Origin: a virus | Lineage: Duplodnaviria; Heunggongvirae; Uroviricota; Caudoviricetes | DNA: 21,669 nucleotides | Strand: one strand, 5' to 3' | Virus record (IMG/VR): IMGVR_UViG_2529293061_000008 | Program-made: the position numbers and the translations under genes | The notes under the pieces: model-generated | What the model was told of the DNA's origin: nothing | Seen by the model: the letters and a program-made list of their open reading frames with translations, nothing else | Database searches by the model: none | Part shown: one piece after another, positions 6,550 to 7,135 of the stretch | How positions within the stretch are numbered: position 1 is the first letter of the stretch | Layout: each line of letters begins with the position of its first letter

Positions 6550-6641
6550 TTACGCGGGTTAACAATTCGTACTCTTAATAATACCAGGCATATCAGGCTG
6601 ATGAACGTAAAAAATCGTTTTACATCAGTAAGATTATTATA

Positions 6642-6661
6642 TACTGTAAATATAAACAGTG
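6642..6661 (+). promoter_or_regulatory. LexA (SOS) box TACTGTAAATATAAACAGTG
   Basis: CTGT-N8-ACAG, 17/20 match to the E. coli LexA consensus; overlaps a probable -10 (TATACT 6640-6645) about 45 bp upstream of the 6703 ORF. Confidence 0.75.
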
Positions 6662-6702
6662 GTTATGCATACAGCGTTGCGTGTGGTGTCATAGGAGGAA
6701 AG

Positions 6703-6891
6703 ATGCAGGACTATTTTTTGGAGTCTTTGAAGCTCCAGCGCATTGATTTTTTTCTTAAGCTTGTAGCGGCTAGTGAGTGTAGTGATGAAGAGAAGGGGCT
6801 GGCTCTGCAGTGGGTTTCTGAATTGACTGATGAACTCATGGCAAAAATCAGAACCCACGAATACAACCGCTCAATGGATGTCATCAGCTGA
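6703..6891 (+). CDS. Small SOS-regulated protein in the position of 186 tum (candidate antirepressor)
   Basis: ATG 6703 with AGGAGG RBS; directly downstream of the LexA box; 62 aa. Confidence 0.5.
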   Translation: MQDYFLESLKLQRIDFFLKLVAASECSDEEKGLALQWVSELTDELMAKIRTHEYNRSMDVIS

Positions 6892-6901
6892 GGTGACTTT
6901 T

Positions 6902-7135
6902 ATGCGCATTGAAATAATGATCGATAAAGAGCAGAAGATTAGCCAGTCTACCCTGGACGCCCTTGAATCCGAGCTTTACCGCAATCTGCGCCCCCTGTAT
7001 CCCAAAACGGTAATTCGCATTCGCAAAGGTAGCTCTAACGGTGTGGAACTAACCGGACTGCAACTGGACGAAGAAAGAAAACAAGTGATGAAAATTATGC
7101 AGAAGGTGTGGGAAGACGACAGCTGGCTGCATTAA
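6902..7135 (+). CDS. DinI-family protein
   Basis: 77 aa starting MRIEIMIDKEQ..., ending ...WEDDSWLH; GAGGTGA RBS; resembles DinI as recalled. Confidence 0.65.
   Translation: MRIEIMIDKEQKISQSTLDALESELYRNLRPLYPKTVIRIRKGSSNGVELTGLQLDEERKQVMKIMQKVWEDDSWLH

What the first reader, a model, noticed from the sequence alone, without database searches (positions are those of the whole stretch)
6619..7135. LexA-box-controlled two-gene operon (tum-like small protein plus DinI homologue) at the right end
A strong LexA box (TACTGTAAATATAAACAGTG, 6642-6661) overlaps the promoter of a 62-aa ORF followed by a separately initiated DinI-family ORF. This matches 186-type SOS induction through an antirepressor rather than repressor cleavage. 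In 186, as I recall it, Tum is a single larger protein with a DinI-like C-terminal part; here the two parts are separate cistrons in different frames, each with its own RBS.
Basis: partly seen in the sequence, partly recalled or inferred. Interest (0 to 1): 0.4.

Follow-up and report, generated by a model that had tools for sequence, protein, structure and literature searches.

The report
LexA-controlled split tumA–tumB prophage induction operon
This is the ordinary, already described SOS-induction switch of Fels-2/PSP3-type P2-like prophages: a LexA-repressed promoter driving a small antirepressor gene (tumA) and a DinI-like gene (tumB), found in about a fifth of complete E. coli genomes.

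Summary
A 20-bp LexA box (6642-6661, 3 mismatches to consensus, none expected by chance) overlaps a promoter (TTTACA-17 bp-TACTGT). The promoter drives a 62-aa ORF (6703-6891) and, in another frame, a 77-aa DinI-family ORF (6902-7135). Each ORF has its own Shine-Dalgarno sequence.

The 62-aa family profile matches residues 3-44 of 186 Tum (hhalign 94.7%, E 6e-8). ORF2 matches the Tum C-terminal half (41% identity). The prophage repressor is 186-type, with no autocleavage domain.

The split arrangement is not new:
- PSP3 is annotated tumA/tumB.
- Lemire 2011 states that Fels-2 and PSP3 have tum split by a stop codon, with the upstream half as the antirepressor.
- ORF1 and ORF2 are 98% and 100% identical to the Fels-2 proteins.
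- A published in-frame Δtum in E. coli HS removes this same ORF (deletion-junction primers match the window exactly) and abolishes mitomycin C induction, as does lexA(Ind-).

Side observations:
- A possible colicin-type second overlapping SOS box, degenerate in this window.
- Identical TumA paired with repressors whose C-terminal domains are about 21-29% identical.
- An in-frame stop (E28*) in this copy's cI.

The parts
6619..6624 (+). -35 hexamer TTTACA of the tumA promoter
   Evidence: Lies 17 bp upstream of TACTGT. TT.ACA is conserved in the Fels-2, SopEPhi and Klebsiella loci. Position is analogous to the annotated -35 of 186 p95. Assigned by analogy, not measured.
6642..6647 (+). -10 hexamer TACTGT (alternative: TATACT at 6640-6645)
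   Evidence: The annotated -10 of 186 p95 is also TACTGT, inside its LexA box. Coordinates checked.
6642..6661 (+). LexA (SOS) box 1, TACTGTAAATATAAACAGTG
   Evidence: 3 mismatches to the 20-bp consensus, with 0 of 100 shuffles matching. Only CTGT-N8-ACAG in the window. A box is conserved upstream of tumA in 12 of 12 loci.
6657..6676 (+). Possible second, overlapping SOS box (colicin-type), CAGTGGTTATGCATACAGCG, degenerate in this copy
   Evidence: In Fels-2 this 20-mer is identical to box 2 of a colicin-like bacteriocin operator. The window copy has 8 mismatches to consensus, against 5 in Fels-2 and 4 in SopEPhi. Colicin operators are known to bind two LexA dimers (PMC2994835).
6693..6698 (+). 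Shine-Dalgarno AGGAGG of tumA
   Evidence: Lies 4 nt before ATG 6703. Conserved in relatives.
6703..6891 (+). tumA-type gene, 62 aa (presumed antirepressor of the 186-type CI)
   Evidence: 98.4% identical to Fels-2 STM2728. phrog_698 E 3.6e-38. Family profile against 186 Tum E 6.3e-8. dN/dS 0.07. AlphaFold model is a two-helix hairpin, pLDDT 88.8. The E. coli HS delta-tum junction primers match 6683-6705 and 6889-6911 exactly.
6890..6896 (+). Shine-Dalgarno GAGGTGA of tumB, overlapping the tumA stop codon
   Evidence: Read. The stem-loop at 6880-6897 covers it.
6902..7135 (+). tumB / DinI-family gene, 77 aa
   Evidence: Pfam DinI 6.6e-23. 100% aa identity to the Fels-2 DinI-family protein and 78% to PSP3 TumB. 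41% identity to 186 Tum residues 71-145. PDB 1GHH DinI E 2.7e-6. dN/dS 0.06.
7268..7298 (+). Probable intrinsic terminator ending the operon (AAGGCCCGCCA-GAAC-TGGCGGGCTT, then TTGCG)
   Evidence: An 11-bp GC-rich stem followed by a U-run in the RNA fold of 7136-7310. Sequence checked. The generic scan did not report it because the T-run is short.
2..568 (-). cI, the 186-type immunity repressor and presumed target of TumA; in this copy interrupted by an in-frame TAA at codon 28
   Evidence: Aligns with 186 CI at 28% identity, E 1e-21. The intact orthologue has Phage_CI_repr plus Phage_CI_C. Window position 487 is A where E. coli relatives have C, changing GAA (Glu28) to TAA.

Best explanation
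The region is the SOS-induction operon of a Fels-2/PSP3-type member of the P2/186 phage family (Peduoviridae), integrated in E. coli.

Proposed mechanism:
1. In a lysogen, host LexA binds the SOS box that overlaps the -10 element and keeps the promoter off.
2. DNA damage activates RecA, LexA cleaves itself, and the promoter fires.
3. The transcript encodes two proteins. TumA is a 62-aa two-helix protein homologous to the N-terminal half of 186 Tum. TumB is a 77-aa DinI-family protein homologous to the C-terminal half of Tum.
4. TumA is the antirepressor. It binds the 186-type CI repressor, which has no autocleavage domain, and stops it from occupying its operators. The early lytic promoter is then derepressed.
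5. TumB probably modulates the RecA filament and so the timing or strength of the SOS signal. It is not needed for the switch itself.

What is shown here: the sequence elements, their homologies, purifying selection on both ORFs, and conservation of the box across relatives.

What is shown by others on near-identical orthologues: tumA and cleavable LexA are required for mitomycin C induction.

What is inferred: LexA binding at this particular box, physical TumA-CI binding, and the role of TumB.
For: - Sequence elements and chance tests.
- Same promoter and box geometry as the annotated 186 p95.
- LexA box conserved in 12 of 12 loci.
- ORF1 is homologous to the Tum N-terminal half: PHROG cross-hits and hhalign probability 94.7%, E 6.3e-8.
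- ORF2 is DinI-family and matches the Tum C-terminal half.
- ORF1 and ORF2 are 98% and 100% identical to Fels-2 STM2728 and STM2726.1.
- PSP3 is annotated tumA ('similar to 5' end 186 tum; UV induction of prophage') and tumB.
- Lemire 2011 (PMC3121763) states that Fels-2 and PSP3 have a split tum and that the upstream PSP3 gene is the antirepressor.
- In E. coli HS, an in-frame delta-tum and lexA(Ind-) both abolish mitomycin C-induced lysis and virion foci (PMC11195241). Its deletion-junction primers match the window exactly at the ORF1 start and stop.
- 186 Tum is the LexA-controlled anti-CI factor (PMC7708051).
- CI is 186-type and has no S24 peptidase domain.
- dN/dS is 0.06-0.07 for both ORFs.
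- The module is present in 1125 of 5426 complete E. coli genomes.
Against: - No experiment was done on this copy.
- Pairwise BLASTP of ORF1 against 186 Tum finds nothing. Similarity to PSP3 TumA is weak (hhalign E 0.004, probability 8%). Homology to the biochemically characterised Tum therefore rests on profiles.
- The PSP3 assignment of antirepressor activity to the upstream gene is a personal communication cited second-hand.
- In this window cI carries a premature stop at codon 28. The presumed target is probably non-functional here, so the operon may currently have nothing to act on.
- The role of TumB is unproven. Non-polar dinI deletions in Gifsy prophages had no effect on induction.
Confidence: 0.9

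Rival explanations
1. The module is correctly identified but is functionally orphaned in this copy. cI has a nonsense codon at residue 28, so there is no active repressor for TumA to inactivate. The element would then be a defective prophage, a clear-plaque or virulent derivative, or a sequencing error. The operon would serve at most to express the DinI-like protein, or to act in trans on another co-resident P2-like prophage.
For: Window base 487 is A where near-identical E. coli prophages have C, changing GAA (Glu28) to TAA inside the helix-turn-helix region. Both relatives examined encode the intact CI WP_000347902.1, and all 17 full-length matches are labelled CI. Trans-acting antirepressors are documented in Salmonella.
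Against: It is a single base difference and could be a read error. All other phage genes inspected in the window are intact ORFs, which is hard to reconcile with long-term carriage of a repressor-null prophage. The operon itself shows no decay.
Confidence: 0.3
2. ORF1 is not an antirepressor. The unit is simply an SOS-regulated DinI-like accessory gene that tunes host RecA, preceded by an unrelated small leader protein. Induction would be controlled elsewhere.
For: ORF1 has no Pfam, PADLOC or PDB match. Databases call it 'hypothetical protein' or 'levan regulatory protein'. Pairwise BLASTP to Tum is negative.
Against: Profile homology places ORF1 on Tum residues 3-44 in the same register. Deleting precisely this ORF in E. 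coli HS, with the DinI-like gene left in place, abolishes induction. ESSI-2-type phages keep the LexA box and the tumA-like ORF but have no dinI gene. That pattern identifies the small ORF as the conserved core of the module.
Confidence: 0.04
3. TumA acts on a host component such as LexA or RecA rather than on the phage CI. It would trigger induction indirectly, in the way GIL01 gp7 acts through LexA.
For: The same TumA sequence is found with CI proteins only 34-47% identical to each other. A host target would explain this trivially.
Against: The homologous 186 Tum acts directly on CI (Shearwin 1998, as cited in PMC7708051, and PMC3121763). In E. coli HS the delta-tum strain still shows a normal recA-promoter SOS response, so TumA is not needed for LexA or RecA signalling.
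Confidence: 0.04

Closest known systems
Fels-2 STM2728 / STM2726.1, and the equivalent 'tum' gene of the E. coli HS P2-like prophage
   Same: Same position after replication gene A. Same promoter and LexA box 1 (identical 20-mer). ORF1 is 98.4% and ORF2 100% identical in protein sequence, with the same 10-nt intercistronic spacing. The HS deletion junctions match the window exactly.
   Different: The second, overlapping SOS box is more degenerate in the window (8 mismatches against 5). The paired CI is a different immunity type (57% identical in the N-terminal domain, 21% in the C-terminal domain). Different cargo follows the operon.
PSP3 tumA / tumB
   Same: The same split architecture downstream of gene A: a LexA box, then a roughly 60-aa gene, then a 77-aa DinI-like gene. 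It is annotated as the UV-induction function. TumB is 78% identical to ORF2.
   Different: TumA is only about 22% identical to ORF1, with weak profile similarity. PSP3 has a single SOS box 21 bp from the start codon and a 3-nt intercistronic gap.
Coliphage 186 Tum (p95-tum-orf97 SOS operon)
   Same: A LexA box overlapping a TACTGT -10 element. The N-terminal half is homologous to ORF1 and the DinI-like C-terminal half to ORF2. The repressor is 186-type CI. A free DinI-like product is also made, from an internal GTG start.
   Different: In 186 the two halves are fused in one 146-aa reading frame. The operon continues through a partial terminator into orf97. In the window the halves are separate cistrons in different frames, and the downstream genes are unrelated cargo with their own candidate promoter.
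Gifsy-1/2/3 dinI-gfoA/gftA antirepressor operons
   Same: A LexA-controlled prophage operon that combines a DinI homologue with a small antirepressor acting on a non-cleavable repressor.
   Different: The gene order is reversed, with dinI first. The antirepressors and repressors belong to unrelated families, and the phages are lambdoid.
Colicin-type double overlapping SOS operator
   Same: The Fels-2-group operator TACTGTAAATATAAACAGTGGTTATATGTACAGTA is about 92% identical to the operator upstream of a colicin-like bacteriocin gene. Over 1200 plasmid records carry a similar 42-mer, mostly small mobilizable plasmids; only this one was checked to lie upstream of a bacteriocin gene.
   Different: In the window the second box has drifted to ATGCATACAGCG. 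Whether two LexA dimers still bind is unknown.

Membership tests
Tum / TumA antirepressors of 186-like phages | Sequence homology to the N-terminal (non-DinI) half of 186 Tum or to PSP3 TumA | tested here: met
   hhalign of the family profile against 186 Tum gives probability 94.7%, E 6.3e-8, residues 3-44 to 3-44. Both proteins hit PHROGs 698, 8554 and 1993. Pairwise BLASTP is negative, and PSP3 TumA matches only weakly.
Tum / TumA antirepressors of 186-like phages | Expressed from a promoter overlapped by a LexA box | tested here: met
   Box at 6642-6661 with 0 of 100 shuffles matching. It overlaps the TACTGT -10 as in 186 p95. A box is conserved in 12 of 12 loci. This is sequence-level evidence only; LexA binding itself was not testable.
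Tum / TumA antirepressors of 186-like phages | Located just downstream of replication gene A in a P2/186-like genome | tested here: met
   Gene A (Pfam Phage_GPA, 3e-126) ends at 6549. The order is the same in 186, PSP3, Fels-2 and SopEPhi.
Tum / TumA antirepressors of 186-like phages | Cognate repressor is 186-type CI without a RecA-stimulated autocleavage domain | tested here: met
   The intact orthologue has Phage_CI_repr plus Phage_CI_C and no Peptidase_S24. It is 28% identical to 186 CI, E 1e-21. This copy carries an E28 stop.
Tum / TumA antirepressors of 186-like phages | Binds CI and prevents operator binding; required for SOS induction | not testable with these tools
   Supported only through orthologues: E. 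coli HS delta-tum, 186 Tum, and PSP3 by personal communication.
DinI family (PF06183) | Pfam DinI match above the gathering score | tested here: met
   81.3 bits against a cut-off of 24.2, covering residues 14-76.
DinI family (PF06183) | Similarity to structurally solved E. coli DinI, including the conserved C-terminal W-E...W helix | tested here: met
   PDB 1GHH E 2.7e-6 over residues 1-75.
DinI family (PF06183) | Binds RecA filaments and modulates the SOS response | not testable with these tools
   Inferred from family membership and from the 186 record note 'modulates SOS induction'.
Colicin-type double overlapping SOS operator | Two LexA boxes overlapping by a few bases, each close enough to consensus to bind a LexA dimer | tested here: inconclusive
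   Box 1 has 3 mismatches. Box 2 (6657-6676) has 8 mismatches in the window, against 5 in Fels-2 and in the bacteriocin operator. Binding was not testable.

The most novel reading that the evidence does not exclude
One TumA allele may serve many immunity types. Phages whose TumA is 98-100% identical to ORF1 carry CI repressors that are only 34-47% identical overall to this prophage's CI. Their N-terminal DNA-binding domains are 57-69% identical and share the motif RYxRDxFPxxW(V/I)IQCxLETG. Their C-terminal oligomerisation domains are only 21-29% identical, which is no closer than 186 CI.

This predicts that Fels-2-type TumA recognises the conserved N-terminal domain and acts as a broad-specificity antirepressor. 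It could then cross-induce heteroimmune P2-like prophages in the same cell. Its expression would be gated by a colicin-type double SOS operator whose second box varies between copies, possibly setting different induction thresholds.
Probability: 0.3. Interest if true: 0.4.

Novelty: already known. Interest (0 to 1): 0.12.

Why it matters
It matters little as a discovery. The mechanism (LexA, then a Tum antirepressor, then CI) has been known since the 186 work. The split tumA/tumB form is annotated in PSP3 and discussed for Fels-2. The very same 62-aa gene has been deleted in E. coli HS with the expected phenotype.

The practical value is for annotation. RefSeq, PHROGs and Pfam still label this widespread protein 'hypothetical', 'unknown function' or, wrongly, 'levan regulatory protein', although it occurs in about 21% of complete E. 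coli genomes. Gene callers also often extend it to a 96-aa ORF that runs through its own promoter and operator. Recognising it identifies which P2-like prophages are SOS-inducible.

Three side observations are modest leads for anyone studying induction thresholds and prophage crosstalk: the TumA allele shared across CI types, the colicin-like double operator, and the nonsense codon in cI.

Tried and rejected
- Pairwise BLASTP of ORF1 against 186 Tum gave no alignment. It was superseded by the profile evidence.
- ORF1 had no hit in Pfam, PADLOC or PDB sequences.
- The generic sigma-70 scan did not find the promoter, and its only terminator-like hit inside the operon is a weak 6-bp hairpin at 6880-6897. 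I treat that hairpin as a possible translational-coupling structure, not a terminator. It is not conserved in SopEPhi.
- Rfam found nothing in 6500-7600.
- The single-sequence search of 1.8 billion representatives found 66 relatives, almost all 50-100 aa. The few longer ones match at their C-terminal end. It did not reach the fused 186-type Tum, so no census of fused against split forms could be made that way.
- The primary papers were not held: Bunny 2002, Shearwin 1998 and Lamont 1989. Their content is cited only through Lemire 2011 and Murchland-type secondary sources.
- I considered that the 96-aa ORF from ATG 6601 might be the real gene. I rejected it because it starts upstream of the -35 element and spans the operator, and because the phrog_698 profile and the orthologues start at M35 of that ORF.
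- I did not run a fold search on the two-helix model. Helical hairpins give uninformative matches.

Full report
**What the window is.** The window carries the early and late regions of a P2/186-like (Peduoviridae) prophage of E. coli.
- A 186-type cI lies at the left edge, followed by cox/apl-like and cII-like genes.
- Replication gene A lies at 4126-6549 (Pfam Phage_GPA, 3e-126).
- Portal and terminase genes start at 9197 on the minus strand.
- The first 1000 bases are at least 99% identical to prophages in 17 complete E. coli genomes, integrated next to rcdA/ybjJ in the two examined.
- The finding sits directly after gene A, where phage 186 has its SOS operon.

**Checking the observation.**
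- TACTGTAAATATAAACAGTG lies at 6642-6661.
- The CTGT-N8-ACAG core alone is not statistically remarkable: 0.27 are expected, and 24 of 100 shuffles have at least one.
- The 20-mer is within three mismatches of the consensus TACTGTATATATATACAGTA. No shuffle produced such a match.
- The left arm of the box, TACTGT, lies 17 bp downstream of TTTACA (6619-6624).
- In the 186 record the annotated p95 promoter is TTCACA, 18 bp, TACTGT, with the -10 likewise inside the LexA site.
- The generic promoter scan missed this promoter because TACTGT matches TATAAT at only three positions.
- ORF1 runs from ATG 6703 to TGA 6891 (62 aa), with AGGAGG four bases upstream.
- ORF2 runs from ATG 6902 to TAA 7135 (77 aa) in a different frame. 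Its GAGGTGA overlaps the ORF1 stop codon.
- A GC-rich 11-bp hairpin followed by a U-run at 7268-7298 is a plausible operon terminator.

**Are the ORFs real, and what are they?**
- Both ORFs are under strong purifying selection. dN/dS is 0.06-0.07 against the SopEPhi, Yersinia and Klebsiella orthologues at dS of about 1.
- ORF2 is a DinI-family protein. It scores 81.3 bits on Pfam against a cut-off of 24.2 and matches PDB 1GHH at E 2.7e-6.
- ORF2 aligns with residues 71-145 of 186 Tum at 41% identity.
- ORF1 has no Pfam, PADLOC or PDB match, and pairwise BLASTP against 186 Tum finds nothing.
- ORF1 and the N-terminal part of Tum nevertheless hit the same three PHROG families of roughly 63-66-aa proteins.
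- A profile of 29 diverse ORF1 relatives (built from the hits) aligns ORF1 residues 3-44 with Tum residues 3-44. hhalign gives probability 94.7% and E 6.3e-8.
- The shared motif is visible by eye: LQRIxLxxRLVAxxxCSxxxKxLAxxWxxEL against IERVEMIARLTAEGTCQERDREIALNLIAEI.
- AlphaFold predicts a confident two-helix hairpin for ORF1 (pLDDT 88.8).

**It is already described.**
- The PSP3 GenBank record annotates tumA (60 aa, 'similar to 5' end 186 tum; UV induction of prophage'). It is followed by tumB ('similar to dinI and 3' end of 186 tum').
- Lemire et al. [quoted passage not shown] They add that in PSP3 the upstream gene carries the antirepressor activity.
- ORF1 is 98.4% identical to Fels-2 STM2728, and ORF2 is 100% identical to the Fels-2 DinI-family protein.
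- SopEPhi carries the same pair. Its Tum-dependent induction is cited in the literature.
- The Phollow preprint (PMC11195241) made an in-frame delta-tum in the P2-like prophage of E. coli HS by fusing the start and stop codons. Both delta-tum and lexA(Ind-) abolished mitomycin C-induced lysis and virion foci, while the recA-promoter SOS reporter stayed normal in delta-tum.
- Its junction primers correspond to GTGGTGTCATAGGAGGAAAGATG and TGAGGTGACTTTTATGCGCATTG. These match the window exactly at 6683-6705 and 6889-6911.
- The deleted gene is therefore this same 62-aa ORF, and the DinI-like gene was left in place.
- The module is common. It is present in 1125 of 5426 complete E. coli genomes.

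**Mechanism.**
- The repressor is 186-type, with Phage_CI_repr plus Phage_CI_C and no S24 peptidase domain. It cannot be induced by RecA-stimulated self-cleavage.
- The best-supported model is the 186 model. LexA holds the tum promoter off; SOS removes LexA; TumA then sequesters CI and pR is derepressed.
- In 186 the two halves are fused, but the record also annotates an internal GTG start that yields a free 76-aa DinI-like product. All three architectures therefore deliver a free DinI-like protein.
- ESSI-2-type phages keep the LexA box and a tumA-like ORF but have no dinI gene. This supports TumA as the essential core and TumB as a modulator.
- LexA binding at this box, TumA-CI contact and the role of TumB are inferred, not shown here.

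1. *Double operator.* In the Fels-2 group the box is followed by a second, overlapping box: TACTGTAAATATAAACAGTGGTTATATGTACAGTA.
   - This is about 92% identical to the operator upstream of a colicin-like bacteriocin gene. Over 1200 plasmid records, mostly small mobilizable plasmids, carry a similar 42-mer.
   - Colicin operators are known to bind two LexA dimers for very tight repression (PMC2994835).
   - In the window the second box is more degenerate, with 8 mismatches against 5 in Fels-2. Whether it still functions is open.
2. *One TumA, many CI types.* Phages with TumA 98-100% identical to ORF1 carry CI proteins only 34-47% identical to this prophage's CI. The N-terminal domains are 57-69% identical. 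The C-terminal domains are 21-29% identical, no closer than 186 CI. This suggests TumA recognises the conserved N-terminal domain or is broadly specific. It is a testable but unproven idea.
3. *Nonsense codon in cI.* This copy of cI has GAA (Glu28) changed to TAA, relative to otherwise near-identical prophages with intact CI. If the change is real, the antirepressor has no functional target in cis.

**Verdict.** The feature is an ordinary, already known tumA/tumB SOS-induction operon. Its main residual value is correcting 'hypothetical protein' annotations and providing the three side leads above.

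Noticed in passing
window 485-487 (minus strand codon 28 of cI, gene about 2-568): The 186-type cI repressor gene has an in-frame TAA where near-identical E. coli prophages have GAA (Glu28). Window base 487 is A against C in the relatives. The stop falls in the helix-turn-helix region, so the repressor should be null in this copy. All other phage genes inspected look intact.
   Followed up: partly
window 6642-6676; L003 (Fels-2) about 2440-2474; L018 2501-2539: The Fels-2-group tum operator has the architecture of colicin promoters, with two overlapping SOS boxes. 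It is about 92% identical to the operator upstream of a colicin-like bacteriocin gene on a small ColRNAI plasmid. In the window the second box has drifted to 8 mismatches from consensus.
   Followed up: partly
window 2-568 against L006, L008-L012 (cI genes of phages sharing the same TumA): Phages with TumA 98-100% identical to ORF1 have CI repressors of at least four or five different types. Their N-terminal domains are 57-69% identical and their C-terminal domains only 21-29% identical to this prophage's CI. This hints that TumA targets the conserved N-terminal domain or is broadly specific.
   Followed up: partly
window 7511-9162 (+), with candidate promoter 7401-7429: Two cargo genes lie between the tum operon and the portal gene. 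One encodes a HipA_C-like kinase (304 aa) and the other a HIRAN-domain protein (246 aa). They match the PADLOC candidate defence system PDC-M03 A and B (E 2e-122 and 7e-93). Relatives carry different cargo at the same site (TIR-domain proteins, or an AAA ATPase plus a polymorphic toxin domain), as expected for a P2-type defence hotspot.
   Followed up: partly
L014 (Escherichia phage ESSI2_ev015) 600-920; L015 (Cronobacter phage ESSI-2) 600-900: These phages have a LexA box and a tumA-like ORF (41-49% identical to ORF1) after gene A, but no DinI-like gene. This is a third architecture besides the fused (186) and split (PSP3, Fels-2) forms. In ESSI-2 the ORF is not annotated at all.
   Followed up: partly
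window 6601-6891: Gene callers often extend ORF1 to the upstream ATG at 6601, giving 96 aa (for example in NC_049342 and many metagenome calls). That start lies upstream of the -35 element and the ORF would run through the operator. The family profile and orthologues start at 6703. Some sources name the protein 'levan regulatory protein', which has no support here.
   Followed up: yes
window 6880-6897: The stem-loop GTCATC-AGCTGA-GGTGAC covers the ORF1 stop codon and the ORF2 Shine-Dalgarno sequence, and is followed by TTTTAT. It could couple ORF2 translation to ORF1 translation. It is conserved in Fels-2 but not in SopEPhi.
   Followed up: no
window 7136-7310: The intergenic RNA downstream of ORF2 is unusually structured (MFE -72.8 kcal/mol, z = -3.7). 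It includes a long hairpin at 7143-7176 that is not followed by a T-run. Rfam finds no family.
   Followed up: partly
L002 (Escherichia phage 500465-1) 4483-4668: Its ORF1 copy has a short patch of altered residues (EERGWLCSGVS in place of EEKGLALQWVS), which raises dN/dS to 0.66. This looks like a compensated double frameshift or a sequencing error in that record.
   Followed up: no
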